From Ostreococcus lucimarinus (taxonomy: Eukaryota): a stretch of 64,000 nt of DNA. The DNA is taken from the NCBI GenBank assembly GCA_000092065.1, contig CP000584.1, one strand, 5' to 3'. The notes under the pieces were generated by a model. The model was not told the DNA's origin. It searched no databases and was given only the letters and a program-made list of their open reading frames with translations. Positions 1 to 29,938 of the stretch are shown in pieces (within the stretch, counting starts at the first letter, position 1; every line of letters begins with the position of its first letter). The position numbers and the translations under genes are program-made.

Positions 1-160
1 CCGCCATCACCGCCACCATCACCACCGCCACCGTCACCACCGCCATCACCACCACCACCGCCGCCGCCGCCGTCCCCGCCGCCGCCGCCGCCTTCACCGC
101 CGCCGCCGCCGCCGTCGCCACCGCCGTCGCCGCCGTCGCCGCCGCCGCCGCCCCCTGCGA
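1..160 (+). repeat. CCN-rich coding microsatellite tract (CCG/CCA/TCA)n encoding (P3-7 S)n.
   Basis: Direct reading of nt 1-160. In frame with gene 1. Confidence 0.9.
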
Positions 161-3100
161 AAGCTATCAGAGGTAACAGCGTCGATTGGACGGTGAAGAA
201 GAACGTCGATAGTACCTCATCGGGGGGAGTTTTCTTGGTCGGATGGAATTCGAAGGGTGCTGCAGTGAGCGCGCGGGCGATCCATTCGTCCTCAAATGTC
301 ACTCGAGGGATATCTGCAACTTTGGAACGTGGGCCTTATTCAATGGGTCACACTTGCGTAGGTCTGACGAGCTCTGCGGATCGCGAGACGGTTGATAGTT
401 CTAACATCGATTTCGCCATGTGTTGCGAATGGGGTTATCTTGGTGTTTTTGAAAAGGGATCGCGCAAATGGCGTGCTAGTGGAAACTTGCAGGATAGTTG
501 TTCACAAACGGACACGCTACAAATCGTCGTGAACGATGGGGATGGCGCGATCGAGTACTTCAAGAATCGGCGTCGCGTGTATACCAGTCAACGGACACCT
601 CAGTATCCGCTTCACGCAGACGCTGAAGTCTATTTCGGAAGACTGGGTGAAGTTGTTTGGATTGAACGAATTCCATCACCGCCTCCTTCTCCTCCTCCAC
701 CGCCTTCACCGCCGCCGCCACCATCACCGCCCCCGCCGCCCCCGCCTTCACCGCCGCCATTGCATCAGTTTACATCCGCGGATGTAGATCCACGCATCAA
801 CACGGCCGCGGCTATTCCGCACATCACACGCGAGGAGTTCGAGGATTTCATCGAAAATATAACAGGCTTCCCTAATTTGGGACACGCCATCGTGATGGAT
901 GAAATCTGGCAGTATATCGACGACGACGGGGACGGTGTTTTGAGTGAGATTGAGTTCCAGCACGCGTCTTACAAAATGCACACTCACGAGCTGTACGTTG
1001 ATCCCATCATCGTCTACCCCAGCCGCTCGATAAAACATCGCTACGGCTTCAAGGTTTCCAAATCAGTCAGGAGTGATTCTAGTGCCTGCGTGGGTGACGC
1101 CGTATCTTACGACGGTCCCTCTGCGTCGCTTGGTTCGTGCGAATTGACTTCGGAGAAGGAGCCTGTAGAGATTACATTATGGGGAAATGGTTTTGCTGGC
1201 ACACCGTCGACGACCACTATTTACAGCTTGGGAGCTTCCAAGAATGGAGACACTACGTACATCGCGAGCGCGCGCGTTTCTGTCGGCACCTGGTTCACGT
1301 ACAACGTGTGTGCGGTGATAAAGTTTCGCGTGATAAAGAAAGATGGTCAGTGCTCGATCGTCGTTGACCAAGTTCATAAGATGTGGCCAAGCCTGGTGTC
1401 TTCGAAATGTGGCATCACGCCACCCATCTATGACAGATGGAGCCGCTACATGGTTGCATCCGTTGCGACGTCGGCGACGAACGGCTTTGCTGGCATGAAA
1501 TCTTCTATGTTCAAGAGCTGCGCTGCGAGTTGTGAGAATGCGATTCTACTTCGACACAATAAAACTGTGCCGTACAATACATCTGAGTGGCGAAATTATT
1601 ACGAGTCTCTAGTAAAACGAGACATGGAGCCGACTACTCACGTCGACTGCTCTCACCGAGAAGACATGGTTGTGCTCGGCAGAGAAGAGGACACGCTCGC
1701 CATGCCCATGGTGCTCTCATCCATGGCTAGGAAGCAATGGCTTCTTGACCTCGATTCGGCGCGGCGAAAGCAGAGTACCAGTGAGAATGTCACCAAATTG
1801 CTCGGCACCATGCACTCCAATTTTGCCATCAGTTCAGATTTATGGCTGCCGGATATTGTACACGTGTTTGACAAAATTCCAAAGCCTGAAAATGCTTCTT
1901 CGGGTCCATCCAAGGAGGATGAAATTCACGTGGTGGATAACGATCTCGGGAATTCTTTCTCAAACTTTGCGCGTATAGAAGTAAACCGACTCCAACTTGA
2001 ACACAAGCGCATTGGAGAAAAAACATTTACAGATGACACCGCCGCTGTGGTCAAAGGCGCTATTCTTTTCCCACAGCATCTCACGGGCGGCAGTCCAAAC
2101 TGTGGATTGTTTGAAGCCATGATTCGTGTTTACGACGTGGAAGAAGACGGCGAGCCAGATGTATACTTGACTGAAGAAGATGGCTCGTTCGAGATGGCTT
2201 TAACGCGTGGAAAGACCTTCAGAATTGAAGCCTTTTATGAAGGACACACCATTTGCTACGCCGGAAGTCAGCCTCAAGACGCGACGTCACCCAATGGCTA
2301 TGATTTCGAAGGAGGACAGCAGGCGTGTGTCAAGACGACCCACACGCTCGCTCGTGTCGGCGATGGCAACTTTTTATACTTTACAGATATTACGCGCGGA
2401 AATATTGACCTTGGTTTGTATGCGGGAGAATGCGAAGAAAGGTACACGGGCGAAGATGTCAAGTTTAGGGTAACGCCCGTCAACGGCTGTCATAAACCCG
2501 TCATCGTTTCCGAAACCGACATCAACGAGCGATGGCATACGATTGAGGATATCCTACCGGAAGGCCAGCAGGTTGGCGACAACGCCCGCGTGTGGAAATT
2601 CGCGGCGATGGATTACTCCATCACGCTAGCGAGTGGTTCCGACATCAGTAGAGTTACCGAAAAAGCGTGTCCAGACGAGGCATGCCCAGATTACTGGGAT
2701 GGATGTCAAGTCGAGCCAGACGACATGCGTCAATTTTTCCGCAATCGAAACTCACTCGAAAGACTTGCGCTGATGAGAGATGAATTTGCGTGGAATTCCA
2801 TCAGGTACAAGTATCACGGATATATCTGCGCACAAATAATGGACATTCCTCGAATCACTGATAACGAGCTCAGACTCGAGACTTGCGTAGGCAACTTAAC
2901 TTCCGGAATGTTGACAGAGAAGCATTTACTGGGTTCGTCTGATCACGACACAATCAGCGTCGCCGCTGACAAATCGTTGAGGGTGAAGGTGTTTGAACTT
3001 CACGATCTCACACCGAATGCCGCAGATGCCCCATTTAAATGCACAAAGTTTCCAAATACGCAAAGTCGCACGGGAAACACGAAATTTTCCGTTCGACAGA

Positions 3101-6100
3101 CTGTCACAAATGAAGAAGATAACGTGTGTCATCCAAATCGCGGGGGTGGGCCCCTGTGCGATTTTGAAGTTAATATATCAACGGCTGACGTCGGCAAACT
3201 CATCTTTCCGACGGAAGAAGATACGGATCAGGAAACTACCCAAATGGTCATTGCCGCGGGGTATCCAAACCTTGCAAACCCGTATCGACGAGAAGTCACG
3301 ATCACTGTGACACGCGACGATACACCCTTGGACGGTGGTCTTGGGCGATCGCTGCAAGCAACGATGACGCGAGTACTTATCCCATTGGGCTCCAAGCCAC
3401 GAGGAGGATTTGACACGGGAGATGACACCTTGTGGGCGACAGTGCCTATTGATGGATTGGTATACACAGTGGTGCACGATCCGCCAGGTGGTAATTCTGT
3501 AGCCGAGCTGCAATCTGGATCTGAGATTACGATTCAGTGGGAAATCGCTTCAGCTCGCTCTGTGAAAGTTGGCAGATCGATCGAGCTCAACCTCGGTTTC
3601 GCAGGTAAAACTACGTTTGATCTAGGCTTTAACGCCGGTTACACCGCAGAGGCTGCTACAAAATCGAGCGTTCTCACGTTGGAGACGGAGAAAGATTTCG
3701 GACACAAAGAATCTGGTCCACACTTCACCGCGAAGGCGACGTCCGAAGAAGTGTGGGAGACGACGGTTACGATGGATCGACACATCCGGAGCAGCGACGA
3801 TGAAGGCACACCTGGACGTCCGGGCGACGTCATTTTAGGAGGTGGTATCGAACTCGTGTACAAGGTATCAGATACGCTCGACGTAGGTACTGTTGACGAC
3901 TGCTTAACTACGGGTGTTGGTATAACCTGGTTACCGCGTCGACCAACCTCTTACGTGTTCAACGTCTTTTCCATCGAGTCTCAAGTGCTGCCGAATCTCT
4001 ACTTTCTGTATACTGTCGCCAAGTCTGGCGAAAATACGGCGAAGACACCGTCAGATAGAATCGTCAAGGATGGATCGGGTATGCGATATGAGTGCGCGTC
4101 ATCGCCGTGCTCTAACTCAGAAATGAATCAACATTGGGCAAGCTACATACTGAGACGAATCCATACGTGGAAGCGAACGTTGCTTTGGTCCTCGCCCGAA
4201 GTTTACTGGATGCCAAAGGGTGCGAGTTATGAAAAGAACTACAAAGCATACGATCGCATCAATGAACCGTACATCGATTCACGTTCCCTCTTTGAACGGC
4301 GCATGTCATCCGCGTTGGCACAGCGTGATTCCAAGCGTGATCCATCGATTCTGAGGGTTGCATTCGAGCTGAGTAAAATGTGGTACGAGCAATCCCTCCT
4401 CAGTGTGGGTGACAGAGGCATGCTTCGTTCGAAACCTCACATCCCTGCTTTATTTCTCACTGCAGGACTGGAAATTCCGAGACTAGCACCATTTCTCGAA
4501 AATTCACGAGCAGCGTCTTTTGCTTCGATCGCGTACCCACGTTCGTCAAAGGGTGCGTGGTCATTCGATGAAGTGGTAAATGACCAAACAAACATCGGAA
4601 TGTACTCTTTTGGGATGAACGAAGTCGCCGCTCGTGACCTCGATGCGCAGGTCAAGAAGTGCGACGGTGTACTGTGCGAGACCAGTGGAGAATTCGACGC
4701 CGCACCACATGACGTGTTGTACGGAGGATCACTGAACGCCATGGGTGAGACCGGCGACCTTCGCGCCACGGACCCTTCGCGCTTAATGGCGTCTCTTACT
4801 GGGACTCCTGGTCCAACCGGAATGCTTCAAAAGGATGCCGTCGCGAGCGGCGGAGAAGAGGAGACGATATACTTAACTTTTGGTGGTGGTGGACATGCGT
4901 TGGAATTCTCTTTCAGCGCAAAGGAGTCCATCAACCGCGATGCATTCGCGTACTCGCTTGACTTTGATGCAAGCGCCGAAAACACAAACAACATGAAGTT
5001 CTCGGGCTCACCAATACCCACCATCGAGTTTAATCGAGCGACAGACATCGCCAGAACGCTGTCCACGGATCGTATCTTTGCGTGGAACAAGTACGGAACG
5101 ATGACGACGGTGTATTCTCTCGCGGATCCAGATTATGGCGATAAATTTGTTCTGAAAGTCGGAAGCGATGCGCGATTCGGCACACCGCTCTTCATGACAA
5201 TGGGCGGTAGATCCATGTGTCCCGGCGAATTGACGACGATGTGGCGCGAATCGGGAAATATCATTGAAAGACCTCGTTCGTTATCCTTTGGTACGCTCCC
5301 GCTGAACCCAGGAGAGCGCGCTGTTCACGAAATAACTATTCAGAATGAATCTCCATACAGAGAAGCCCGACCGCTGTATTTACGTATCGTTGATGGACAC
5401 TCAGAGTCGTTACGATCGCTGGTGCGCGCAGCGCTGAACATCATCAAGGATGATGAATCAGCTTCGGCACAACATGTAGCCACAGTTGTCACGAACACTG
5501 CTGCAAACTCAGTAGCTTCGGCATCCCTGTCCATGGCCACTGTCATAGAGAAAGTTGAAGAGGCAGCTGGCAGCGGCGACGCGACTGCCCTGAGTGTTAT
5601 GCAAGTCGTCGTCGCCGAAGTCGAGAGCGTCAGTAAATCGGCTATGACGCCGTTACAGGATGTAGAGATTACCGTGAACGGCAAGAAGGTGGTACCTGTC
5701 GCTGAGTGGCTTCCTTTGAAGCATGTCATCGGCGATGCTCTTGAATCACAACGGACCGTTCACAAGACTGTGTTCAACTTGGGTTTCAAGCCAACGGAAA
5801 CCTCGCATCCTATCATTGAACACATTCAAGTTGAAATTGGATCTCTGTGCGAAATGCAAATCTCATATGATGGAGCTGGTCTGTATCGCGATCCAATCGC
5901 CGTCAAGGCTCAACTTGAAAAGATGCGATGGGAATCCAAGTGTCCGAGCGTGACGTTTTCCAAGTCCACCGTCATTGACAGTGAAATCACGCGCGCAAAC
6001 GCGACTGCGCCGCCGCTTCGTTTGGTGGTGGTCAATCCCGATTCTGGAAACTTGTGGGATCCTAGCAGCGCCAGTAGACTCGAAAAGGTTGTCGTACAGT

Positions 6101-7371
6101 ACAGACCGCTTTCGGGTGGCGAATGGATTACTGCGAAGGAGGATCATGTGAAGTACAAAGACGACTCGTACAAGAAAAATCTCATCTGCGAACATTCTCG
6201 AACGAGCGGATGCACGTGGGACTGGGATTTGAACAACAAATACGACAAGTTACTCAGCGGATACAAGGACGGTGCGTACGAGGTTCGCGTTAAAAACTTT
6301 TGCTCGGGCGGTGACGCTTTCGCCGCGACCGAGGTGCACGAGTACGTCGGCGATAAGACGCTATTACTCTTCACGGATACGAAAAACCCGCTCGTCGAGC
6401 AGCACGTGTCGTCACCCGCGGCGCGCACCGTCACCATCGTGTACGCGGAGGAAATCGATTGCGCAGATCCACCGACCTTCGAAGTGGCGCAAACTCACGA
6501 CGAATCCTGCGTCGCCGTCGCGGGCGATGGCACAGTCAGCGCGGCTATCATTCGTGAGTCTTACGAGCAAACGTGCCTCAACACCGGCGTTCAAGGAAAG
6601 TGGATGATGCAATATCCCAACAATGAGGATGCTCCGAATCCTGGATTGTACAGAGTCACCGTCAGAGACATACGTGACAAAGCCGGTAACCCTTTCGTCG
6701 GCGATTTGACGATAAACTACGTCGTGGGTGACGTCGTCGATGACTGTGACATTTTGAAAGCATCCAAAGATGACCTCACCCCGCTCATCGGTTTGGGAAA
6801 TTTCGCCGATGTTCAAGGCAATACCATCTGGGGGGTGTACTCTAAAAATATCGACTGTCGCTCGCAGCGAGTCACCATCACGAAGAGTTTTGATCAATCG
6901 TGCCGATCCACGAGCACAGAAATTGGCACAACCAACTTCACGCTTGCGTGCGTGAACGTCGGCGGAACGGGACAATGGATCATGAAATATCCTGAAGATC
7001 TGGAATCTGGAGTTTACACCGTGCGAGTTCAAGGCGTGAAAGATCGCACTGGTCACGAAGCGTCTTCTTTCATTCGCAAGTTTACAACGCTTCATAACTC
7101 GGATGGAACGTTGAACGAATGCGACGACGCGTCCGCCTCTTTTGCCATCGGACTTGGGCGGATGCGTCGTCGACGTCTCGCTCCGAGCGCGTCCGCGACA
7201 AAGACGTCCACAAACTTGATTCTGTCCGATCTCGCCATCGTCGTGTTCGCTATCTGCGCGCTCGTGATGATCATCAAGAAAAGAATCGCGCTGCCCGCGG
7301 ATGAGAGTGAGCTGCGCGAACGCGAAGCCTTCGACAAGGTGGACATTCCGCGCTATGGTTCATCTTTGTGA
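1..7371 (+). CDS. Giant secreted or type-I membrane protein, 5'-partial (reading frame 1 is open from nt 1; at least 2456 codons). Extensin-like (S)P3-7 tracts, one canonical EF-hand loop, two tandem ~95-aa Cys-containing Ig-like repeats near the C-terminus, a single C-terminal TM helix and a short basic tail.
   Basis: ORF track 193..7371 (2392 aa); the same frame has no stop back to nt 1 and encodes PPSPPPSPPPP repeats from nt 1. Second Pro tract PSPPPSPPPPPSPPPPPSPPPPPPPSPPP at ~664-765. EF-hand loop DDDGDGVLSEIEF. C-terminal hydrophobic segment LILSDLAIVVFAICALVMII followed by KKRIALP. Repeated G-Y-V-(V/R)-V-D-AGN-like motifs. No antisense competitor of comparable quality. Confidence 0.8.
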   Translation, partial: PPSPPPSPPPPSPPPSPPPPPPPPSPPPPPPSPPPPPPSPPPSPPSPPPPPPAKAIRGNSVDWTVKKNVDSTSSGGVFLVGWNSKGAAVSARAIHSSSNVTRGISATLERGPYSMGHTCVGLTSSADRETVDSSNIDFAMCCEWGYLGVFEKGSRKWRASGNLQDSCSQTDTLQIVVNDGDGAIEYFKNRRRVYTSQRTPQYPLHADAEVYFGRLGEVVWIERIPSPPPSPPPPPSPPPPPSPPPPPPPSPPPLHQFTSADVDPRINTAAAIPHITREEFEDFIENITGFPNLGHAIVMDEIWQYIDDDGDGVLSEIEFQHASYKMHTHELYVDPIIVYPSRSIKHRYGFKVSKSVRSDSSACVGDAVSYDGPSASLGSCELTSEKEPVEITLWGNGFAGTPSTTTIYSLGASKNGDTTYIASARVSVGTWFTYNVCAVIKFRVIKKDGQCSIVVDQVHKMWPSLVSSKCGITPPIYDRWSRYMVASVATSATNGFAGMKSSMFKSCAASCENAILLRHNKTVPYNTSEWRNYYESLVKRDMEPTTHVDCSHREDMVVLGREEDTLAMPMVLSSMARKQWLLDLDSARRKQSTSENVTKLLGTMHSNFAISSDLWLPDIVHVFDKIPKPENASSGPSKEDEIHVVDNDLGNSFSNFARIEVNRLQLEHKRIGEKTFTDDTAAVVKGAILFPQHLTGGSPNCGLFEAMIRVYDVEEDGEPDVYLTEEDGSFEMALTRGKTFRIEAFYEGHTICYAGSQPQDATSPNGYDFEGGQQACVKTTHTLARVGDGNFLYFTDITRGNIDLGLYAGECEERYTGEDVKFRVTPVNGCHKPVIVSETDINERWHTIEDILPEGQQVGDNARVWKFAAMDYSITLASGSDISRVTEKACPDEACPDYWDGCQVEPDDMRQFFRNRNSLERLALMRDEFAWNSIRYKYHGYICAQIMDIPRITDNELRLETCVGNLTSGMLTEKHLLGSSDHDTISVAADKSLRVKVFELHDLTPNAADAPFKCTKFPNTQSRTGNTKFSVRQTVTNEEDNVCHPNRGGGPLCDFEVNISTADVGKLIFPTEEDTDQETTQMVIAAGYPNLANPYRREVTITVTRDDTPLDGGLGRSLQATMTRVLIPLGSKPRGGFDTGDDTLWATVPIDGLVYTVVHDPPGGNSVAELQSGSEITIQWEIASARSVKVGRSIELNLGFAGKTTFDLGFNAGYTAEAATKSSVLTLETEKDFGHKESGPHFTAKATSEEVWETTVTMDRHIRSSDDEGTPGRPGDVILGGGIELVYKVSDTLDVGTVDDCLTTGVGITWLPRRPTSYVFNVFSIESQVLPNLYFLYTVAKSGENTAKTPSDRIVKDGSGMRYECASSPCSNSEMNQHWASYILRRIHTWKRTLLWSSPEVYWMPKGASYEKNYKAYDRINEPYIDSRSLFERRMSSALAQRDSKRDPSILRVAFELSKMWYEQSLLSVGDRGMLRSKPHIPALFLTAGLEIPRLAPFLENSRAASFASIAYPRSSKGAWSFDEVVNDQTNIGMYSFGMNEVAARDLDAQVKKCDGVLCETSGEFDAAPHDVLYGGSLNAMGETGDLRATDPSRLMASLTGTPGPTGMLQKDAVASGGEEETIYLTFGGGGHALEFSFSAKESINRDAFAYSLDFDASAENTNNMKFSGSPIPTIEFNRATDIARTLSTDRIFAWNKYGTMTTVYSLADPDYGDKFVLKVGSDARFGTPLFMTMGGRSMCPGELTTMWRESGNIIERPRSLSFGTLPLNPGERAVHEITIQNESPYREARPLYLRIVDGHSESLRSLVRAALNIIKDDESASAQHVATVVTNTAANSVASASLSMATVIEKVEEAAGSGDATALSVMQVVVAEVESVSKSAMTPLQDVEITVNGKKVVPVAEWLPLKHVIGDALESQRTVHKTVFNLGFKPTETSHPIIEHIQVEIGSLCEMQISYDGAGLYRDPIAVKAQLEKMRWESKCPSVTFSKSTVIDSEITRANATAPPLRLVVVNPDSGNLWDPSSASRLEKVVVQYRPLSGGEWITAKEDHVKYKDDSYKKNLICEHSRTSGCTWDWDLNNKYDKLLSGYKDGAYEVRVKNFCSGGDAFAATEVHEYVGDKTLLLFTDTKNPLVEQHVSSPAARTVTIVYAEEIDCADPPTFEVAQTHDESCVAVAGDGTVSAAIIRESYEQTCLNTGVQGKWMMQYPNNEDAPNPGLYRVTVRDIRDKAGNPFVGDLTINYVVGDVVDDCDILKASKDDLTPLIGLGNFADVQGNTIWGVYSKNIDCRSQRVTITKSFDQSCRSTSTEIGTTNFTLACVNVGGTGQWIMKYPEDLESGVYTVRVQGVKDRTGHEASSFIRKFTTLHNSDGTLNECDDASASFAIGLGRMRRRRLAPSASATKTSTNLILSDLAIVVFAICALVMIIKKRIALPADESELREREAFDKVDIPRYGSSL

Positions 7372-7653: not shown

Positions 7654-9631
7654 ATGGCGGCGACGCGCGAGGACGACGGCGACGTTGAGGCGCGGCTGCG
7701 CGCGCGCTGGGCGGCGGACGGACGCAAAAACCCCGACGTCGAGGACGCGCTGCGGCGCGTGGGGATCGCGAAGGCGCGCGAGCGACGGTGCGTCCGCGCC
7801 GCGCGGGCGACGACGACGACGGCGACGAGCGATGCGCGAACGACACTAACGCTCGTTTATGCGACGCAGGGCGATGATGGCGCGAGCAAAGAATGTGGAG
7901 TTGCGCTCGAGCGAGGACGTCGGCGCGGCGAAGACGTACGAGGAGGCGGCGCCGCGCGCGGACACGCCGCCCAAGCGCGAACGGAGCGTGGAGGCGGCGA
8001 GTGAGTCGGCGGCGGACGAAGAGGCAACGCGTAAAGAAGCGATGCTCATCGAAACGTTCGATTCATCGCGGGCACCGAGGGGCCGAGGCGAAGGCGTCGC
8101 GGGGTCTCGTCGAGCGACGCCGAACGCGTCGATTGACGAACGCGCGCCAGGCGCGGGATTGCGGCTGAAAGGGAACGAAGCGATGAAGTGCGGCGATTTT
8201 GCACTCGCACAGGCGTTATACGGCGAAGCGCTGGATGCCGCGCGAGAAGAGGATGCGCATCTTCGAGCGGTGGTGTTTTGTAATCGCGCGTTGGCGTTTC
8301 ACAAGATGAACGAATACGATGCCGCGTTGTGCGACGCCAAGTGCGCGGAAGAGCTCGCGCCGACTTGGAGTAAACCCAAGCATAGACTCGCTGAGGCGTG
8401 TTTACGCCTGGGGTCGTACACTCTCGCCGTCACATACGCGCGTCTGGGCGAAAAACTCCAGTTCGAGGAGGGCGATTTCAGCAAATCGTTTCGCGACGTG
8501 CTGGACGAAATCGCGATTTGCGCCGCGGAGGACGGGTCCGTCGCCGGGTTTGACGGCAAATTAATTTACGTCCGAAGCGCGGGCGAAGACGCATGGCTCG
8601 GACGAGAGGCTCCTTTGAACGCGGCTTTCGATGAGCTAGAAGGCGAAGTCGCGGATCCTATGTTTGGTGGCGGCTCGGCGAAGGACGCGAATTCGATGAA
8701 ACCCGTGCACGCGAGGTCACTTCCGGAGGCAATTTCTAAAGCAAACGACGGTGACCGCATACTCTTACTGCGTGGCGTTCACAACGGGCTCGGAACCGTG
8801 GTTGAGATTGACAAGCGCGTGCTCATACGAGGCGAAGGCGCGCTTCGAGACACGACGTGCGATTGCCGAAACAACGCGGCGTTATTTCGCATCAAGCGTC
8901 CGTGCGTGATTCAAAATCTCGACATCGATTTCACAGGGTTTAGCGAGGCGATTCGCATCAAGGGAGATTCGCGCGTGAACGCGTTGATCGAGAATTGCGT
9001 GATCAGATCGAGCGGCGGCGACTGCGTTGCGGTCGGTGGCAAATCTGCGCCGACATTTCGCAACTGCTCAATCACGGGAAAATTGAGCGGCGTTCGCTCG
9101 TACGCCCAAGCAACGCCGACGTTTATCGATTGCAACATCACGCGCTCGGGATTACAGGGCGTGCTCGCCATGAAGGAATCACGAGTCATCATGCACGGCT
9201 GCGCGGTGCAAAACAACGAAGAAGACGGCGTCGTCGTCATGGAACAGTCCAACGTGGTGATGAGCAAATGCGTCGTACAAGACAACAAAGGCCCGGGCGT
9301 GGACGTTTCGAATACGGCAAAGGTTGTCGTGAACGATTGCGACATCGACGCCAATGTCGGCGGACTGTGGCTGTGGGACCATTCGTGCGCGCACGTCGCC
9401 GCGTCCAGCGTGAACGGGGGCAAATCTCACGCCGTGCTCGTCGACGTCAACGCTCGCGCGAATTGTCGCAGAACCAAAATCATCGGCGTCGTGCACGCGT
9501 CGGAGACGGGCGCGCGGGGCGTTCGGGGCGAAGGCACCGTCGTCGAGACGTTGGAAACGCCCACGTCGCTTCCCCAAGAAGCCAAAGGCGCGTTCAAGCA
9601 CGACCCGTGCGGCTTTTCACGAAAACAATAA
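7654..9631 (+). CDS. TPR-repeat plus right-handed parallel beta-helix (PbH1/CASH-like) protein. Proposed two-exon model join(7654..7787,7870..9631).
   Basis: ORF 7859..9631 contains a TPR-like segment (LRLKGNEAMKCGDFALAQALYGEALDAA...NRALAFHKMNEYDAAL) and about 8 beta-helix rungs (NCVIRSSGGDCVAVGG / NCSITGKLSGV / DCNITRSGLQGV / GCAVQNNEEDGVVV / KCVVQDNKGPGVDV / DCDIDANVGG). The upstream ORF 7573..8004 ends in a GTGCGT donor. A CACTAAC branch and a GACGCAG acceptor join the frames in phase (...AKARER-R-AMMARAKN...). The true ATG is probably 7654 (MAATREDDGD). Confidence 0.65.
7788..7869 (+). other. Putative 82-nt spliceosomal intron (GTGCGT...CACTAAC...GACGCAG) in the TPR/beta-helix gene.
   Basis: The donor GT sits at the third base of an Arg codon. 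The yeast-like branch point CACTAAC lies ~20 nt upstream of the CAG acceptor. Splicing is phase-consistent and links ORF 7573 (frame 1) to ORF 7859 (frame 2). There is no homology support for exon 1. Confidence 0.5.
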
Positions 9632-9676
9632 TCTCACATTCCTCCGCAATCCATCGCCCGCGTTCGCGCGCGCCGC

Positions 9677-10258
9677 CTATTCGTCCCCGAAATCGAACCC
9701 GCCGCTCTCGACGAGTCGCGCTTCGTCGTCCGTCGCCGTCGCCGTCGTCCCCGCGTCGACGTCGATCCTCGCGCGACGTCGTTCGCGCGTCGCGTCTCCC
9801 TCCTCTCGCGCGCGCGTCCGCCTCCGCGCGTCGTCCTCGCGAATCGCGCGCTTCGCCTCCGCGGTTCTCGCCCTCGCCTTCGCGTTCGCGTCGTCGCGTT
9901 CTCGCCGCGCGTCGTCTCGCGCCCTCTCGTTCGCCCTCGCGCTTTCGATCGCCCTCGCGCACGTCTCCGCGAGTCCTTCCCCTCCCGCCCGTCGCGTCCT
10001 CGCCGATTCCTCGCCCCCGTACGCGCGCGCCGCGCCGTCGCCCGCGCGTCCGCGCGACCACGCCGTGTGCGTCGGTTCGCCGTCGCGCGCGGTCGGCATC
10101 GTCGCGCCGCGAAACCCGTGTCGCGCGAGCGCCTCCATCGACACCGCCGCGCGTCGCGCCGTCGCGCCTTTCGTCGTTTTTTCTTCCCCGTCGTCGTCGT
10201 CGTCGTCGTCGTCGTCGCTCGACGTCGCGCCGAGCGCGTCCATGAATTTCGCCGGCAT
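9677..10258 (-). CDS. Low-complexity acidic/basic protein (Asp9 run, R/E/A/D-rich); hypothetical.
   Basis: Minus-strand ORF 9677..10333, trimmed to the internal ATG (MPAKFMDALGATSSDDDDDDDDDGEEK...). GC-ending codons. Convergent with the TPR gene and divergent from the ZZ gene. Could also be a spurious GC-rich ORF. Confidence 0.35.
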   Translation of the reverse strand: MPAKFMDALGATSSDDDDDDDDDGEEKTTKGATARRAAVSMEALARHGFRGATMPTARDGEPTHTAWSRGRAGDGAARAYGGEESARTRRAGGEGLAETCARAIESARANERARDDARRERDDANAKARARTAEAKRAIREDDARRRTRAREEGDATRERRRARIDVDAGTTATATDDEARLVESGGFDFGDE

Positions 10259-10502
10259 GCGCGCGGCGACCGACCGCGACCGCGCGACTGTGTTTGCAGT
10301 CCCGATACACATTTCGCGAATCGTCGCGCGCACGCGATGCGTTAAATACGGTTAAATACGGCGCGACGGCGACGCGAGCTCCGGCGCGCGCGGCGACCGA
10401 CCGCGACCGCGCGACTGTGTTTGCAGTCCCGATACACATTTCGCGAATCGTCGCGCGCACGCGATGCGTTAAATACGGCGCGACGGCGACGCGAGCTCCG
10501 GC
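10259..10502. repeat. Direct tandem duplication, period 127 bp (copy 1 = 127 bp including an extra 10-bp TTAAATACGG insertion; copy 2 = ~117 bp), in a divergent promoter.
   Basis: ORFs 10294 and 10421 begin with the identical 19-aa peptide MQSRYTFRESSRARDALNT, giving a 127-bp period. The unit GCGCGCGGCGACCGACCGCGACCGCGCGACTGTGTTTGCAGTCCCGATACACATTTCGCGAATCGTCGCGCGCACGCGATGCGTTAAATACGG...CGCGACGGCGACGCGAGCTCCGGCGC is read twice in the sequence. It contains the AT-rich TATA-like TTAAATAC. Confidence 0.85.
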
Positions 10503-10736
10503 GCGCGCGCGCTGACGTGGCGAACCGAAACGGCGCCGTCGTCGCCGCACACCTCGACGGCGCGCGCGACGCGACGGCGCGCGACGCCGGCGCGACGGAC
10601 GACGGCGCGCGCGCGGGCGGGCGAATCGACCGCGCGCGCGATTCGCGACGCGCGACCGGGCGCGCGAGGACGACGCGCGTCGCGCGAGGACGACGCGCGA
10701 GGACGACGCGGGACGTGCTGACGCGGCGTCGCGGCG

Positions 10737-11411
10737 ATGGCGACGCTCGCGCGCGTGCCGCGCGCGCGGAGCGGCACGGAACTGAGCGGGATGGAGGCGA
10801 AGAGCGCGAAAACGACGTCGACGACGACGCAGACGGGCGCGAGCGGGGCAGGGGCGACGCGAGGGAAGGGAAGGCGAAGCTGCGTGAAGGCGGCGCGCGG
10901 GCGCGGGACGGCGAAGCGACGCGGACCGCGCGTCGCGTTCGCGCGCGAGGTGTGCGAGGTGATCGGACGCGCGGATGCGGACGTCGATCGAACGCCCAGG
11001 GGTGAACCGTCGAAGTGTTCGTCGTGTGGATTGCACGTCGTCGGGTACTCGTTCGAGTGTTTGGCGTGCGCGGGGGCGGGCGCGGGGAACGACGGCGGCG
11101 CGTACGCGCTGTGCGCGATGTGCTTTACGGCGCACGCGCACTTGACGGCGGCGCCGGAGTTGGCGCGAGCGCACGGGATCACGTATTTGATTCACAAACA
11201 CGCGCCGTCTGTGTTCGTCAGAGGCGGGGACGACGATCAGATGATGCTCGATGAGATTTTGCGAGATCGTCGCGAGCTCATGGTCAACGGCGGCGCGCCG
11301 CCCGAGCGCGAAGCCTCGACCGGGGACCTCGAGCGGTGTTTTGAACGCGAGCGTCAGCCGAGCGCGGGGAGCGACGAATCGGAGGATGTTTTGCAGTATT
11401 GTCCCGTGTGA
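10737..11411 (+). CDS. ZZ-type zinc-finger protein.
   Basis: Cys/His pattern CSSCGLHVVGYSFECLAC...YALCAMCFTAHAH...H matches the ZZ finger (CxxC-x-CxxC ... CxxC ... HxH). The start is uncertain (ORF-track start 10737; alternative Met at 10791). Confidence 0.6.
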   Translation: MATLARVPRARSGTELSGMEAKSAKTTSTTTQTGASGAGATRGKGRRSCVKAARGRGTAKRRGPRVAFAREVCEVIGRADADVDRTPRGEPSKCSSCGLHVVGYSFECLACAGAGAGNDGGAYALCAMCFTAHAHLTAAPELARAHGITYLIHKHAPSVFVRGGDDDQMMLDEILRDRRELMVNGGAPPEREASTGDLERCFERERQPSAGSDESEDVLQYCPV

Positions 11412-11482
11412 TCATCTCGCGCGAGGCTGATGTTTTGTTGTACTTTTAGACCTCATTCTTTTCTCAATATCACAGACTAGTG

Positions 11483-12889
11483 TCACTTCTTCTTCGCCGC
11501 CTCGCGACCTCGAGCGATGGCGAGATCAAACATCCGTTTCAAGTCTGCGTTATCACCGTCGACTTGCAAACCCTCAAAAAACGCTAACGCGGCGTCTTCG
11601 TACTCCTCTAACTCTAGCGCGGCCTCGCCCTCGCGGTACCACGCCTTGATGAACATCGGATCGAGCGTCCTCGACGCGCGCGCGTCGTCCCTCGCGCCTT
11701 CGTATTTCTTGAGCTTTAGACGCGCCGCCGCGCGATTCGCCCACGTCTTCGCGCACGAACCATCCTGTTCGAGGGATGACGAGTACTCCGTTTCTGCCTC
11801 TTCGAATTTCCCCGCCACGAACGCTTCGTTACCCGCACGTTTCGTCTTCGCCGCCGCCTCGGCGTCTCGCGTGACGAATCGTTCCGAGGTCGACGCTGGC
11901 GCCTCGCCGGCGTCGACGCCACTGTCTCTTTGCATCGCGCTCAGTTTCGCGGCGACGCGCGCGATGATGGCATCCGTCGTCCACTCGCCCTCGTCATCGG
12001 GCGTCGTCACGGGTAGCAACACGTCGACGACGACGCGCCTCTTCGTCGCCGCGGCGGCGTGAATCGCCTTCATGCCTCCCGAATCCGCCTTGTCGGCGTC
12101 GGCGCCGCCCTTCAACAGCGCCTTCACCATCGCCTCCGAGCACGTCTCCGTCGCGGGATGCGCGGCGGCGATGTGCAACGCCGTCATACTCCCCTCCGGT
12201 CCCGCGTTCACGTTCGCGCCGGCGTCAATCAACACCTCCACGCTCTTCAAATCTCCCGAAGCGCACGCGAGCGCCGTCGCCGCGACGCCGCCCTCGAGCG
12301 CGACGTCACACCTCGCCCCGTGCTTCAACAGCGTCTCCAGCATCCCCGAGCACCCTCTCATCGCCGCCACCAGCAACGGCGTCCCCACGTTCGCGCACCG
12401 CTGTTCGATCGCCTCCGATATCGTCAGCCCGTACGTCCCGCTCGCGAGCGTCCGCAGCGCCTCCTCGCAGCGCGTCGCGTCCGCGCCGATCCCTTTCGCG
12501 TGCGCCCCCATGACGATCTGATGCATCGCTCCCGCCCCAGATTTCGTTAATTTCCTCGCGTCCGCTCCCAGGCTCACCAGCGTCTTCACGCACTCGACGT
12601 GTCCGAGCGCCGCCGCCGTCGTGAGCGCGGTGAAGCCCTCGGCGTCGGGCGCGTCGGCGTCGCACCCGAGCTCGCACACCAGCGCCTTGAGCACGCCGAC
12701 GTCCCCTCGCGCCGCCGCGACGTGCGCGCAAGACCGTCCATCGCCGTCGACGATCGTCGCGACCGCGGACGCGCCGTGCGCGAACGCCGTGGACGCCGCG
12801 CGGACGTCGTCGGCGCCGCCGAGCTGAATGGCGCGCATGAGCGTCTGCAGCGCCTCGACGTCGTTCGTCGCGGGCGCGCGACGCGACAT
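11483..12889 (-). CDS. Ankyrin-repeat plus C-terminal TPR-repeat protein.
   Basis: ORF 11483..13132, trimmed to the ATG at 12889 ([15 protein letters not shown]). Ankyrin repeats (G.TALH.AA..GH...V..LL..GAD...). C-terminal TPR helices ([28 protein letters not shown]... [62 protein letters not shown]). Confidence 0.7.
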
Positions 12890-13294: not shown

Positions 13295-14212
13295 ATGAGT
13301 CACGAGCTCGACGGGTGGATCGCGGCGCTGCGCAAATGCGAGCCATTGGAGGAAGACGACGTCAAGCGATTGTGTCAGATGGCGATCGAGATCTTGGTGG
13401 AAGAGTCGAACGTGCAGACGATCGATTCGCCGGTGACGATATGCGGGGACATTCACGGGCAGTTTTACGATTTGTTGGAACTGTTTAAAGTCGGCGGCGA
13501 CTGCCCGGATACAAACTATTTGTTCATGGGGGACTTCGTCGATCGCGGGTTTTACAGCGTGGAGACGTTTTTGTTGCTCCTGGCGCTGAAGGTGAGGTAC
13601 CCGGATCGAATGTATCTCATTCGGGGGAATCACGAGTGTCGACAGATCACGCAGGTGTACGGGTTTTACGACGAGTGTTTGCGCAAATACGGGAGCGTCA
13701 ACGTGTGGCGATATTGCACGGATGTGTTCGATTACCTTTCGTTGTCTGCGCTCATAGATAACAAGATATTTTGCGTGCACGGGGGGTTGTCCCCGAGCAT
13801 CACGACGATCGATCAGATTCGAACGATCGATCGTAAACAAGAGGTGCCGCACGAAGGCGCGATGTGCGATTTGCTTTGGAGCGACCCCGAGGACGTCTCC
13901 GGCTGGGGGCTTTCCCCTCGAGGGGCGGGGTATTTGTTCGGCGACGACGTGTGCACGTCGTTCACACAGACGAATAGCGTAGACATGATCGCGCGAGCGC
14001 ATCAGCTCGTGATGGAGGGGTACAAGTGGATGTTTAACAAACGGCTCGTCACTGTGTGGTCGGCGCCGAATTACTGCTACCGCTGCGGCAACGTCGCGGC
14101 CATCTTAGAACTGGACGAAAACCTGGCGCACGACTTCAAGGTTTTCGAGGCGGCACCGCAAGAGGCGCGCGGGGTGCCGGCGAAGAGGGCGACGCCCGAT
14201 TACTTCCTGTAA
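13295..14212 (+). CDS. Ser/Thr protein phosphatase 2A catalytic subunit (PPP family).
   Basis: 305 aa, near-identical in motifs to eukaryotic PP2Ac: [34 protein letters not shown], and the C-terminal TPDYFL. The ORF-track 5' extension (12599-13294) is a GC-rich run-on. Confidence 0.95.
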
Positions 14213-27769: not shown

Positions 27770-28663
27770 TTACGCGCCGCGACCGATTTGCGCGGCTTGA
27801 CCTTGCATCAAGCCCATGCGAATATCGCGGGACGCCTCCGCGACGGCGCCCGGACCGGAAGGCACAAAAATGGTCGAGTTGCCGCCTTGCGTGCCGACTT
27901 CCTTCATGGTGTCAAAGTACTGCGTCATCATCATCATCTCCAAAACGTCTTTGCTTGAGATACCATCCACAGATTCTTGGAAGTCAACCACGGATTCGCG
28001 CAAACCGGCGATGATGGCTTGACGTTGACGCGCCATCCCCGTACCCGCGAGATACTTGGACTCCGCATCGGCTTCGGCAGCCTTGACGACCATGATCTTA
28101 TCCGCCTCGGCGCGATCTTGCGCCGCGACTCTCGCGCGCTGCGCGGCGTTGATCTCGTTCATCGCCTGTTTGACTCGCGCGTCCGGCGCGATGTCCGTCA
28201 CGAGCGTGTTCATGATTTGATACCCGAATCCCTCCATCGACTTGCTCAGCAACTCCTTCACGCTCTGCGCGATCTCTTCCTTGCTCTCGAACACGTCGTC
28301 CAACTTGATCCTCGGCACCGTCGATCGCACGACGTCGAACACGTACGACCGAATCTGCGCCTTGGAATCCGTCAGTTTGTAAAACGCGTCGTACAATCGC
28401 GTCTCGTCCATCGACAGCACCTGATACTGCGTGCTCACGACGATCGTCACGAACACGTTATCCTTCGTCTTCGTCTCCACGCTCACGTCCAGCGACTGCA
28501 CGCGCGTCGACACCGTCCCCGCGACCGCCTGCCCGATGAACGGGTTCACGAAGTGGCACCCCTCGCGCGCGAAGAACGCAAACTTCCCGCACTGCTGGAT
28601 CACCTGCACCGTGCCCGTGGGCACGCACGTGAAGCAGCAGCACCCCGTGGGGCCGGCCGTCAT
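27770..28663 (-). CDS. SPFH/band-7 protein of the hypersensitive-induced-response (HIR) type.
   Basis: Near-collinear with plant HIR proteins (RVQSLDVSVETKTKDNVFV, DAFYKL, YVFDVVRSTVP, VKQAMNEINAAQRARVAA, ESKYLAGTGMARQRQAII, TQYFDTMKEVG, FVPSGPGAV). The N-terminus MTAGPTGCCC is compatible with acylation. Confidence 0.9.
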   Translation of the reverse strand: MTAGPTGCCCFTCVPTGTVQVIQQCGKFAFFAREGCHFVNPFIGQAVAGTVSTRVQSLDVSVETKTKDNVFVTIVVSTQYQVLSMDETRLYDAFYKLTDSKAQIRSYVFDVVRSTVPRIKLDDVFESKEEIAQSVKELLSKSMEGFGYQIMNTLVTDIAPDARVKQAMNEINAAQRARVAAQDRAEADKIMVVKAAEADAESKYLAGTGMARQRQAIIAGLRESVVDFQESVDGISSKDVLEMMMMTQYFDTMKEVGTQGGNSTIFVPSGPGAVAEASRDIRMGLMQGQAAQIGRGA

Positions 28664-28754: not shown

Positions 28755-28815
28755 ACTGTTTGCGCATATAAAAAGTATAAAAAGCCTTTTTATACTTTTT
28801 ATATGCGCAAACAGT
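28755..28815. promoter_or_regulatory. 61-bp perfect AT-rich palindrome (30-nt arm + C + 30-nt arm) carrying back-to-back TATAAAAAG boxes; candidate symmetric bidirectional core promoter.
   Basis: The sequence ACTGTTTGCGCATATAAAAAGTATAAAAAG C CTTTTTATACTTTTTATATGCGCAAACAGT is read directly. It lies between the divergent ATGs of the HIR gene (28663, minus) and the 28868 (+) gene, and is preceded by the palindromic TTTTTTAAAAAA at 28739-28750. Confidence 0.6.
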
Positions 28816-28867: not shown

Positions 28868-29938
28868 ATGGCGACGGCGCGCGCGACCGCGGGCGCGCCG
28901 GCGCGCGCGACGACGGCGCGCTGGATCGCGACGCGATCGCGCGCGACGCGCGCGACGCGCGGGACCCGCGGCCGCGCGCGCGCGACGCCGAACGACGGCG
29001 AAGCGCACGCGGCGTACCTGCGAGACGTCGCGGCGACGCGCGCGCCGGCGGAGCTCGAGGCGCTCGCGCGCGTGCTCGACGCGCTGGGGTGCGAAACGAT
29101 CGCGCCGAACGCGCGGCGAGGGATCCACCCGCTGGTGATGCCGCTGGCGAGGACGCGCGAGGGAGGGGTGATCGGACTCATGGTGACCGAGGACGACGGC
29201 GAGGCGACGCCGGTGGTCGAGGTGCGGGACGGCGCGCACGCGACGATGCTGGCGAAGAGCGCGAGGGATTACGTGCACAGAGCGATCGTCGAGGAGGAAG
29301 CGATGAGCGATGAGCAGACGACGACGGTGGCGGCGGCGGCGGGCGCGGTGGGGGTGAGCCTGCACGCGCACGGGGCGTTTAAGACGTCGGGGAAGGAGTT
29401 CGACGTGTACGTGACGACGCAAATCGGGAAGTTTCCGTCGTCCATGGAGGGGCTGGTTCGGAGACACTTGAAACGAAACGACGAACAGTCGGCGTTGATC
29501 ACGTGTGATCTGTACAAGGCGACGTTCGGCGATTGGGGGGCGCCGCACGTGTTCATCTCTGATTTATATTCCAAATTAGGACGCGACGAGGAGGCGCGAG
29601 ACGCCGCGCGACAGGCGTTGCAAACGCCGTGGTCCACCATCGGCGGCAGAGACGCCATCACGCGAATGATTGACGTCGCCGGGTGGTCTGGTAAGACCGT
29701 GGCAGAGATCAAAGAAGTCCTAGAGAGCCGACGCGGTCCATCCGCGGCGGCGTTCGACGGCCCGAAGAGCGAAAAGCAACTCGCGCGCGAAGAGGGCGAG
29801 CTCTTGCTCGACCAAATCGCCGCGGGTGAGATCGAATCCTCGACCGTCAATCAGCGTTTGGCGGAGTGTTACATGAACGCCGGCAAGCCCGCGCTCGCGA
29901 AGTTCATCATGTGCGGCGCGGGGATGCCGGCGCTGTGA
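28868..29938 (+). CDS. Hypothetical protein with an R/A/T-rich transit-peptide-like N-terminus.
   Basis: 356-aa ORF with mixed composition and a green-lineage organellar presequence look (MATARATAGAPARATTARWIATRSRATRATRG). No confident family. Confidence 0.5.
   Translation: MATARATAGAPARATTARWIATRSRATRATRGTRGRARATPNDGEAHAAYLRDVAATRAPAELEALARVLDALGCETIAPNARRGIHPLVMPLARTREGGVIGLMVTEDDGEATPVVEVRDGAHATMLAKSARDYVHRAIVEEEAMSDEQTTTVAAAAGAVGVSLHAHGAFKTSGKEFDVYVTTQIGKFPSSMEGLVRRHLKRNDEQSALITCDLYKATFGDWGAPHVFISDLYSKLGRDEEARDAARQALQTPWSTIGGRDAITRMIDVAGWSGKTVAEIKEVLESRRGPSAAAFDGPKSEKQLAREEGELLLDQIAAGEIESSTVNQRLAECYMNAGKPALAKFIMCGAGMPAL

What the first reader, a model, noticed from the sequence alone, without database searches (positions are those of the whole stretch)
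10259..10502. 127-bp tandem duplication carrying a TATA-like TTAAATAC core in a second divergent promoter
Two head-to-tail copies lie between the minus-strand acidic-protein ORF and the ZZ-finger gene. Copy 1 carries an extra 10-bp TTAAATACGG. The two copies give identical 19-aa peptides in the ORF track, which fixes the period at 127 bp. The unit has an AT-richer core (TGTGTTTGCAGTCCCGATACACATTTCGCGAATCG ... GTTAAATACGG) in a GC sea. This looks like a recent duplication of a promoter module rather than coding sequence; only two copies and no spacers, so not a CRISPR array.
Basis: seen in the sequence. Interest (0 to 1): 0.5.

Follow-up and report, generated by a model that had tools for sequence, protein, structure and literature searches.

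The report
Copy-number-variable promoter repeat in Ostreococcus
The two head-to-tail copies are real: in wild populations of the marine picoalga Ostreococcus lucimarinus this non-coding ~120-bp unit occurs 1 to 4 times between two divergent genes, an ordinary kind of variable promoter repeat.

Summary
Window 10259-10385 (127 nt) and 10386-10502 (117 nt) are head-to-tail copies. They are identical except for an extra 10-nt GTTAAATACG in copy 1.

The window is Ostreococcus lucimarinus-type DNA. The same locus was recovered from 24 independent marine metagenome contigs whose flanks are at least 99.4% identical to the window. Counting the window, 22 alleles have no assembly gap. They carry 1 unit (9 alleles), 2 (7), 3 (5) or 4 (1).

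Unit lengths are 112-127 nt and differ by amounts that are not multiples of three, so the unit is non-coding. Diversity within units is about 3 times that of the neighbouring unique intergenic DNA.

The unit was found nowhere else: not in the rest of the window, and only at this locus in a metagenome scan. It matches no Rfam family and shows no RNA-fold signal.

Two short blocks, ATTTCGCG..AATCG and TTAAATA, persist at the same place in two sister lineages. The nearest box lies 84-94 bp upstream of the minus-strand gene's ATG. The best reading is a variable-number tandem duplication of a promoter module, formed by slippage or unequal exchange at flanking GCGCGCG microhomology. Any effect on expression is untested.

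This is a known kind of feature, of modest interest.

The parts
10259..10385 (.). Repeat unit 1 (127 nt), directly next to the ATG of the minus-strand acidic gene. It carries the doubled TTAAATACGG.
   Evidence: (families D2 and D9)
10386..10502 (.). Repeat unit 2 (117 nt), identical to unit 1 apart from the 10-nt insertion/deletion.
10503..10509 (.). GCGCGCG, a 7-nt repeat of the unit's first bases just after the last unit. It is the microhomology flanking the unit and the likely site of the original slippage or unequal exchange.
   Evidence: Read from the sequence; single-unit alleles have the same GCGCGCG on both sides.
10341..10361 (.). 10-nt micro-duplication GTTAAATACG x2.1 inside unit 1.
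   Evidence: (TRF: period 10, 100%)
10309..10323 (.). Conserved block ACATTTCGCGAATCG in unit 1. It contains the palindrome TTCGCGAA, a 7/8 match to the E2F consensus, and GAATCG. The same block is in unit 2 at 10436-10450.
   Evidence: Nearly invariant among the 42 population units (one G->A in the ATTTCGCG part, one G->A at the last base). Kept in sister lineages L016 and L017.
10436..10450 (.). Conserved block ACATTTCGCGAATCG in unit 2.
10342..10358 (.). Two TTAAATA boxes of unit 1 (10342-10348 and 10352-10358). On the minus strand they read GTATTTAA. They lie 84 and 94 bp upstream of the acidic gene's ATG.
   Evidence: these are the only TTAAATA in 64 kb; invariant in all units and in L016 and L017.
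10469..10475 (.). TTAAATA box of unit 2, 268 bp upstream of the plus-strand gene's ATG.
10322..10339 (.). Small palindrome CGTCGCG-CGCA-CGCGATG. Its loop is the most variable patch of the unit in the population, and it is deleted (13 nt) in many units nearest the plus-strand gene. The second copy is at 10449-10466.
   Evidence: Sequence; variants CGC, TGT, TTC, TGC and TGG and the 13-nt deletion.
10310..10312 (-). ATG on the minus strand inside unit 1, in frame with the acidic ORF. It explains the 214/231/253-aa gene calls in metagenomes. It is out of frame in sister lineage L016, so it is probably not the true start.
9677..10258 (-). Acidic (poly-Asp) protein gene, 193 aa. It starts MPAKFMDALG, and the start region is conserved in relatives (MAPRFMDALG, MGYMDALG). 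No known domain.
10737..11411 (+). Divergent 224-aa gene with Cys/His pairs resembling a ZZ finger. Its protein cluster includes O. lucimarinus CCE9901 protein XP_001417306.1. No Pfam or PDB match.
10513..10520 (.). TGACGTGG (ACGT-core box) in the unique part of the intergenic region, just after the array. It is conserved in L016 and L017.

Best explanation
The feature is a copy-number-variable minisatellite. Its unit is a 112-127-bp piece of the shared promoter region between two divergently transcribed Ostreococcus lucimarinus genes.

Each unit starts directly at the acidic gene's ATG. It carries what looks like that gene's 5' leader, a conserved ATTTCGCGAATCG block and a TATA-like TTAAATA box (GTATTTAA on the gene's strand).

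The first duplication most likely arose by replication slippage or unequal exchange between the GCGCGCG heptamers that flank the unit in single-copy alleles. Further unequal exchange and small slippage events then produced alleles with 1 to 4 units and many unit variants. Those events include the 10-nt TTAAATACGG doubling, a 13-nt loss of a small palindrome and an 8-nt deletion. The window's allele, with two identical units, is a very recent duplication or conversion.

Functionally, the copy nearest the acidic gene most likely serves as its core promoter. Extra copies add redundant upstream promoter or factor-binding modules, which may shift expression of one or both genes.

Shown: the repeat, its polymorphism, its non-coding nature, its restriction to this locus, and conservation of the two blocks. 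Inferred: promoter function, the orientation served, and any expression effect.
For: **Repeat structure and significance:**

**Organism:** the protein cluster of the plus-strand gene contains O. lucimarinus CCE9901 protein XP_001417306.1.

**Population variation.**
- 24 independent contigs of the same locus have 2.4-kb flanks 99.4-100% identical to the window.
- Their arrays hold 1, 2, 3 or 4 units, in 9, 7, 5 and 1 of the 22 gap-free alleles (window included).
- 35 of the 42 units are distinct sequences.
- L032 (1 unit) and L033 (4 units) encode exactly the window's 193-aa acidic protein.

**Diversity (pi):** 0.026-0.031 in the units, 0.010 in the unique intergenic DNA and 0.0008 in the plus-strand gene's coding sequence.

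**Non-coding:** unit lengths are 112, 117, 118, 119, 125 and 127 nt.

**Mechanism:** GCGCGCG lies on both sides of the single unit in one-copy alleles.

**Conserved blocks.**
- ATTTCGCG(CG)AATCG and CTTAAATA(C/G)G persist at the orthologous place in L016 and L017, while the sequence around them diverges. L016 holds three diverged modules.
- TTAAATA occurs only 3 times in 64 kb, all in the array, 84-94 bp from the acidic ATG. The equivalent distance in L016 is about 81-87 bp.

**No RNA gene:** no Rfam hit above noise, no tRNA, and fold z-scores of +0.4 to +1.2.
Against: - There are no transcription start or expression data, so promoter function and orientation are inferred from position and conservation alone.
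- TTAAATA/TATTTAA is only a near-match to the TATA consensus. Other divergent promoters in the 7.4-21.5-kb stretch that was examined have no such box.
- The spacing between the two conserved blocks varies from 10 to 25 nt among units and lineages. That argues against a strict two-part core promoter.
- The distance from the last box to the plus-strand gene's ATG is also conserved (268-277 bp), so the module could serve that gene instead.
- Short-read metagenome assemblers can collapse or mis-join 117-127-bp repeats. Three scaffolds have N gaps in the array and three contigs end in or just beyond it. Allele frequencies, and some one-copy alleles, are therefore unreliable.
- The window's exact allele was not seen in any other assembly.
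Confidence: 0.62

Rival explanations
1. Same polymorphic repeat, but the module works in the plus orientation for the plus-strand ('ZZ') gene. An E2F-like or MYB-like site (TTTCGCGAATCG) lies about 25 nt upstream of a TTAAATA box. Transcription would start about 30 bp after the last box, giving a leader of roughly 235 nt. Copy number would then change the number of upstream activator sites.
For: - The order 'factor site then box' on the plus strand is the classical arrangement.
- The distance from the last box to the plus-strand gene's ATG is conserved in L016 and L017 (268-277 bp).
- L017 has an exact E2F consensus TTTCGCGC at this place.
- A more distant lineage, L034, has GCGGGAAAA in the same promoter.
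Against: - A leader of about 235 nt would be long in this compact intergenic region, and other intergenic regions in the window are 83-406 bp in total. That Ostreococcus leaders are usually short rests on my own knowledge.
- The unit abuts the acidic gene's ATG, and the boxes lie at 84-94 bp from it.
- The plus-strand gene has its own conserved GCTGACG motifs closer to its ATG.
- The window's own site, TTTCGCGA, is only 7/8 of the E2F consensus.
Confidence: 0.2
2. A neutral slippage product with no regulatory content. The region is simply unstable, CG-rich intergenic DNA, and the blocks 'conserved' in sister lineages reflect short divergence time rather than constraint.
For: - The region shows high indel and substitution diversity.
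- The window is full of short CG-rich tandem repeats (300 TRF rows).
- Alleles with one to four copies all occur in nature, so copy number is clearly tolerated.
Against: - In L016 and L017 the sequence around the two blocks has diverged beyond easy alignment, while the blocks themselves are intact.
- The TTAAATA box is invariant in all 42 units, and the ATTTCGCGAATCG block changes in only two single units, whereas neighbouring positions are tri-allelic.
- The unit necessarily includes the 84-94 bp directly upstream of a gene's ATG, where a promoter must lie in a 478-bp divergent intergenic region.
Confidence: 0.12
3. Assembly artefact. The second copy in the window comes from mis-assembly, and the true sequence has one copy or a different number.
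For: - The two copies are identical, which is the pattern an assembler error would give.
- The exact allele was not found in other assemblies.
- L032, which has the same acidic protein and a 100% identical left flank, has one unit.
Against: - 13 of the 21 gap-free assemblies other than the window, made by different assemblers from different samples, have 2 to 4 units at this locus. Their units can be told apart by sequence.
- Copy 1 differs from copy 2 by the 10-nt doubling, which is also seen in the non-terminal units of other alleles.
- Collapse of identical copies in short-read assemblies would explain L032 better than expansion in the window would.
Confidence: 0.04
4. A small-RNA gene, or an snRNA-type (USE + TATA) promoter driving an unannotated non-coding RNA, that has been duplicated.
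For: GTCCCGATACACAT followed about 30 nt later by a TATA-like box loosely recalls the plant USE/TATA arrangement described in PMC8287931.
Against: - The USE reported for O. lucimarinus is CCCRTAA (PMC8287931, Table 1). The unit has only CCCGATA, and the motif is absent from the array.
- The USE-like stretch is not conserved in L016 or L017.
- There is no Rfam match above noise.
- Folding gives no stability signal, in the unit or downstream.
- No T-run terminator lies downstream.
Confidence: 0.02

Closest known systems
Promoter minisatellites / VNTRs. Examples from my own knowledge are the unstable tandem repeats in yeast promoters (Vinces et al. 2009) and the human INS and MAOA promoter VNTRs. 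Promoter tandem repeats in general are discussed in PMC3566118.
   Same: - Head-to-tail non-coding units upstream of a gene.
- Copy number polymorphic in the population.
- Units carry potential factor-binding sites.
- Generated by slippage or unequal exchange.
   Different: - The unit is long (112-127 bp).
- It appears to comprise a whole proximal promoter plus leader, starting at the base next to the ATG.
- It sits in a bidirectional promoter.
- No effect on expression has been measured here.
Tandemly duplicated enhancer or promoter modules, such as the 72-bp repeats of the SV40 enhancer and duplicated 35S enhancers (my own knowledge).
   Same: Exact tandem duplication of a roughly 70-130-bp regulatory segment that contains factor sites close to a TATA-like element.
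   Different: Those are viral or engineered elements with a proven dosage effect. This one is a cellular locus with natural 1-4 copy variation and untested activity.
Introner-like elements and other dispersed short repeats of Mamiellales
   Same: Short (~100-200 bp) and GC-rich, in a prasinophyte genome.
   Different: - This unit is found at one locus only.
- It is intergenic, not intronic.
- It has no terminal repeats or splice-site architecture.

Membership tests
Minisatellite / VNTR | Head-to-tail copies of a unit of at least 10 bp | tested here: met
   Units of 127 and 117 nt, 100% identical apart from one 10-nt insertion/deletion.
Minisatellite / VNTR | Copy number differs among individuals of the same species | tested here: met
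   1 to 4 units among the 22 gap-free alleles (window included), with flanks at least 99.4% identical. Caveat: these are short-read metagenome assemblies.
Minisatellite / VNTR | Confined to one locus rather than dispersed | tested here: met
   nhmmer on the window gives a best other hit of E=0.6. All 5 hits of the metagenome 27-mer scan are this locus. The complete genome was not available.
TATA-box core promoter | Match to TATAWAWR | tested here: inconclusive
   The minus strand reads TATTTAAC in the window, and TATTTAAA or TATTTAAG in population variants and sister lineages, which is 6-7 of 8 positions. The plus strand, TTAAATAC, is weaker.
TATA-box core promoter | Located about 25-35 bp upstream of a mapped transcription start | not testable with these tools
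   No transcript 5'-end data were available. The box is 84-94 bp from the acidic ATG.
TATA-box core promoter | Conserved at the orthologous position in related lineages | tested here: met
   TTAAATA is invariant in all 42 units and in L016 (three times) and L017.
E2F binding site | Match to TTTSSCGC | tested here: inconclusive
   The window has TTTCGCGA (7/8). L017 has an exact TTTCGCGC, and L034 has GCGGGAAAA. TTCGCGAA is not enriched in the window (5 found, 6.8 expected).
snRNA-type (type 3) promoter | The species' own USE (CCCRTAA in O. lucimarinus, PMC8287931) upstream of the TATA box | tested here: not met
   CCCRTAA is absent from the array. Its only two matches in the window are at 1177 and 26701.
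snRNA-type (type 3) promoter | A known small RNA downstream | tested here: not met
   Rfam returns only noise (E of 2.9 and 3.9, far below the gathering scores). Fold z-score is +1.2.
Dispersed repeat / introner-like element | Many copies at unrelated loci | tested here: not met
CRISPR array | Short repeats separated by unique spacers | tested here: not met
   The units abut directly with no spacers, and the genome is eukaryotic.
Coding repeat (N-terminal extension of the acidic protein) | Length variants keep the reading frame | tested here: not met
   Units of 112, 117, 118, 119, 125 and 127 nt. The upstream ATG is out of frame in L016.

The most novel reading that the evidence does not exclude
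Copy number of a complete promoter module (factor site plus TATA-like box plus leader) could act as a natural 'tuning knob' for one or both genes of this divergent pair in wild O. lucimarinus populations.

The promoter would then be under recurrent selection for repeated cis-modules. Supporting this, the orthologous promoters of at least three other Ostreococcus lineages each carry their own, unrelated short direct repeats at the same place: L016, L019 and L036.
Probability: 0.2. Interest if true: 0.45.

Novelty: new member of a known kind. Interest (0 to 1): 0.27.

Why it matters
It is a clean, natural example of a hypervariable promoter repeat in one of the smallest and most compact eukaryotic genomes. 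The flanks differ by less than 0.6%, while the array ranges from 1 to 4 units.

In practice it could serve as a high-resolution strain marker for O. lucimarinus in metagenomes. It is also a ready-made allelic series for testing whether dosage of a promoter module changes expression.

It also serves as a warning. The repeat breaks or collapses short-read assemblies, and it makes gene callers add spurious N-terminal extensions to the neighbouring protein (214, 231 and 253 aa instead of 193-196 aa).

Tried and rejected
- **Known RNA families and tRNAs.** Rfam on 9000-12000 at E<=10 gave only two noise hits. No tRNA or tmRNA was found in the window.
- **RNA structure.** Both strands of both units, and the 239 nt downstream, fold no better than shuffled sequence (z of +0.4 to +1.2).
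- **snRNA-type promoter.** The USE reported for O. lucimarinus, CCCRTAA (PMC8287931), is absent from the array.
- **Dispersed or introner-like element.** There are no other copies in the window, and the metagenome scan hits only this locus.
- **General promoter motif.** TTAAATA, and the pair TTTCGC..TTAAATA, occur nowhere else in 64 kb. TTCGCGAA is not enriched.
- **Coding repeat.** Rejected by the unit-length variation and by the out-of-frame ATG in L016.
- **Identity of the flanking proteins.** Pfam and PDB sequence searches found nothing for either the acidic or the 'ZZ' protein.
- **Global three-way alignment.** The MAFFT alignment of the whole intergenic region mis-aligned the unit. It was replaced by an alignment of the module alone.
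- **Literature.** Searches found no paper on Ostreococcus minisatellites at this locus and none giving Ostreococcus transcription start sites for these genes.
- **One invalid number.** One diversity estimate ('left 600-2300') is invalid, because some loci are truncated there, and is not used.

Full report
**1. The observation**

Window 10259-10385 (127 nt) and 10386-10502 (117 nt) are direct, abutting copies. The repeat finder reports 93 nt at 100% identity with spacing 127, and 42 nt at 100% identity with spacing 117. The only difference is one extra GTTAAATACG in copy 1, which TRF lists as a 10-nt repeat of 2.1 copies at 10341-10361.

Seven more bases, GCGCGCG (10503-10509), repeat the start of the unit. 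By direct count it is 49% G+C, in a stretch that is 0.677 G+C.

The array fills the left half of the 478-bp gap between the ATG of a minus-strand acidic ORF (10258..10256, MPAKFMDALG...) and the ATG of a plus-strand 224-aa ORF (10737). The one exception is the 'ZZ-finger' label, which has no Pfam support.

**2. Organism and population data**

The plus-strand protein belongs to a 90%-identity cluster that includes XP_001417306.1 of Ostreococcus lucimarinus CCE9901. Gene content around the locus is eukaryotic; for example, a metallophosphatase (PP2A-type) gene lies at 13295-14212.

The exact protein is indexed in 879 blocks of public assemblies. Exact-protein look-ups and one DNA scan recovered 24 independent contigs covering the whole locus. 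Their 2.4-kb flanks are 99.4-100% identical to the window on each side.

The array in these contigs is not constant. Among the 22 alleles without assembly gaps, window included, 9 have one unit, 7 have two, 5 have three and 1 has four. L032 (one unit) and L033 (four units) both encode exactly the window's 193-aa acidic protein.

Of the 42 units, 35 are distinct sequences. Unit lengths are 112, 117, 118, 119, 125 and 127 nt, so length variants do not respect a reading frame. Pairwise diversity compares as follows:

| Region | Diversity (pi) |
|---|---|
| Repeat units | 0.026-0.031 |
| Adjacent unique intergenic DNA | 0.010 |
| Plus-strand gene coding sequence | 0.0008 |

There is a caveat. These are mostly short-read assemblies. 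Three scaffolds carry N gaps in the array, and three contigs end in or just beyond it. Identical units may therefore have been collapsed, and allele frequencies are only indicative. Arrays of 2-4 sequence-distinguishable units, produced by several assemblers from different samples, nevertheless show that multi-copy alleles are real.

**3. Anatomy of the unit**

The 42-unit alignment shows which parts vary.

- The central block GTTTGCAGTCCCGATACACATTTCGCGAATCG is nearly invariant, and the TTAAATACG box is invariant.
- The most variable patch is the loop of a small palindrome, CGTCGCG-NNNA-CGCGATG. Five loop variants occur.
- Many units nearest the plus-strand gene have lost this palindrome through a 13-nt deletion.
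- The TTAAATACGG box is single or doubled.
- An 8-nt deletion between short direct repeats also occurs.

In one-copy alleles the unit is flanked on both sides by GCGCGCG. That is the expected substrate for the first slippage or unequal-exchange event.

A minus-strand ATG inside the unit (10312..10310) happens to be in frame with the acidic ORF. It accounts for the 214, 231 and 253-aa gene calls in metagenomes. It is out of frame in sister lineage L016, where the protein starts MAPRFMDALG. It is therefore unlikely to be the real start.

**4. What it is not**

- **Not an RNA gene.** There is no Rfam family above noise, no tRNA and no thermodynamic structure signal in either strand of either unit or in the downstream 239 nt.
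- **Not a dispersed element.** A profile of the 42 units finds nothing else in the window, with a best other hit of E=0.6. An exact 27-mer scan of the JGI metagenome collection returned five stretches, all at this locus.
- **Not a general promoter motif.** TTAAATA occurs three times in the whole 64 kb, on both strands combined, and all three are in the array.
- **Not an snRNA-type promoter.** The USE reported for O. lucimarinus snRNA genes is CCCRTAA (PMC8287931, Table 1), and it is absent from the array.

**5. Evidence for regulatory content**

Synteny (beta-helix gene, then the acidic gene on the minus strand, then the 'ZZ' gene on the plus strand, then the ankyrin/TPR gene on the minus strand) is conserved in relatives.

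In two sister lineages most of the unit has diverged, yet two blocks remain at the orthologous place. These lineages are L016 (right flank 98% identical to the window) and L017 (95.5%). The blocks are ATTTCGCG(CG)AATCG(C/T)CGC and, about 20-25 nt further on, CTTAAATA(C/G)G. L016 carries three diverged modules with a period of roughly 60 bp.

The box nearest the acidic gene lies 84-94 bp from its ATG in the window and about 81-87 bp in L016. On that gene's strand the box reads GTATTTAA, a 6-7 of 8 match to TATAWAWR. About 30 bp downstream of it lies the conserved CGATTCGCGAAATG block, where a start site would be expected.

I therefore read the unit as the acidic gene's proximal promoter plus leader. 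This is an inference. The spacing between the two blocks is not fixed (10-25 nt). The last box is also at a conserved 268-277 bp from the plus-strand gene's ATG, so a plus-strand role is a serious rival. In that reading an E2F-like or MYB-like site would sit upstream of a TATA-like box.

The E2F resemblance is only partial in the window (TTTCGCGA, 7/8). It is exact in L017 (TTTCGCGC), and a canonical GCGGGAAAA lies in the same promoter of a more distant lineage (L034). A CGATTC motif, present on the minus strand of the unit, was reported as enriched in blue-light-induced genes of Ostreococcus RCC809 (PMC10662239). As a 6-mer it is a weak lead.

**6. Comparison with known things**

This is a promoter minisatellite or VNTR, a well-known class. 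From my own knowledge, examples are the unstable promoter repeats of yeast and the human INS and MAOA VNTRs; promoter repeats in general are covered in PMC3566118.

It differs in detail only:
- the unit is long;
- it seems to be an entire proximal promoter starting at the base next to an ATG;
- it lies in a bidirectional promoter of an extremely compact algal genome.

I found no paper describing it.

One point is mildly interesting. Orthologous promoters of other Ostreococcus lineages carry their own, unrelated short direct repeats at the same position. L036 has a 33-40-nt unit containing CCAATCAAAA, three to four times. L019 has an 18-nt motif three times at 30-nt spacing. This could mean recurrent selection for repeated cis-elements, or merely an unstable region.

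**7. Verdict**

The feature is a recent, non-coding tandem duplication of a promoter segment, polymorphic in copy number, and neither dispersed nor a CRISPR array. The mechanism of origin (microhomology-mediated slippage or unequal exchange) is well supported by the sequence. Promoter function, orientation and any dosage effect remain untested.

It is a new member of a known kind, with interest of about 0.27.

Noticed in passing
window 28755-28813: A perfect ~59-nt AT-rich palindrome, ACTGTTTGCGCATATAAAAAGTATAAAAAG-C-CTTTTTATACTTTTTATATGCGCAAACAGT, lies in another divergent intergenic region (minus ORF ATG at 28663, plus ORF ATG at 28868). It has two TATAAAAAG boxes facing each way, which looks like a symmetric bidirectional TATA promoter.
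   Followed up: partly
window 10189-10227: The (GTC)n tract encoding the poly-Asp run of the acidic protein is length-polymorphic: 193 aa in the window and in 2 contigs, 196 aa in most metagenome alleles.
   Followed up: partly
window 1-7371: This stretch is markedly lower in G+C (0.50-0.54, against 0.60-0.70 elsewhere). It encodes the C-terminal 2392 aa of a giant protein that is 4008-4018 aa in metagenome contigs, has PPPPSPPPP runs and has no Pfam family on record.
   Followed up: no
L036 2170-2293; L019 2326-2404; L016 2492-2690: Orthologous acidic/'ZZ' promoters of other Ostreococcus lineages carry their own short direct repeats. L036 has a 33-40-nt unit ending in CCAATCAAAA, x3-4. L019 has an 18-nt ATCGGTnTTTCCATCGA motif x3 at 30-nt spacing. 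L016 has three diverged TTTCGC..TTAAATA modules.
   Followed up: partly
L013 1421-1664: In this contig one unit, which has an internal 12-nt duplication, is followed abruptly by unrelated AT-rich sequence up to the contig end. This is either a chimeric assembly or an insertion in a more diverged haplotype (left flank 98.4% identical).
   Followed up: no
window 10322-10339 and 10449-10466: The three loop bases of the small palindrome CGTCGCG-NNNA-CGCGATG are the most variable positions of the unit in the population (CGC, TGT, TTC, TGC, TGG), while the stem arms are invariant. Several neighbouring sites are tri-allelic. The cause is unexplained; it could be hairpin-loop hypermutability or an unconstrained spacer.
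   Followed up: partly
window 10513-10520 and 10717-10730: GCTGACGTGGCG (an ACGT-core box) and GTGCTGACGCGGCG, just upstream of the plus-strand gene's ATG, are conserved in L016 and L017. A GCTGACGCG motif also occurs in the more distant L019 promoter.
   Followed up: no
window 10661-10710: Further exact short tandem repeats lie just upstream of the plus-strand gene's ATG: CGCGCGAGGACGACGCGCGT x2 and CGCGCGAGGACGA x2.3. They are present in all population alleles inspected.
   Followed up: no
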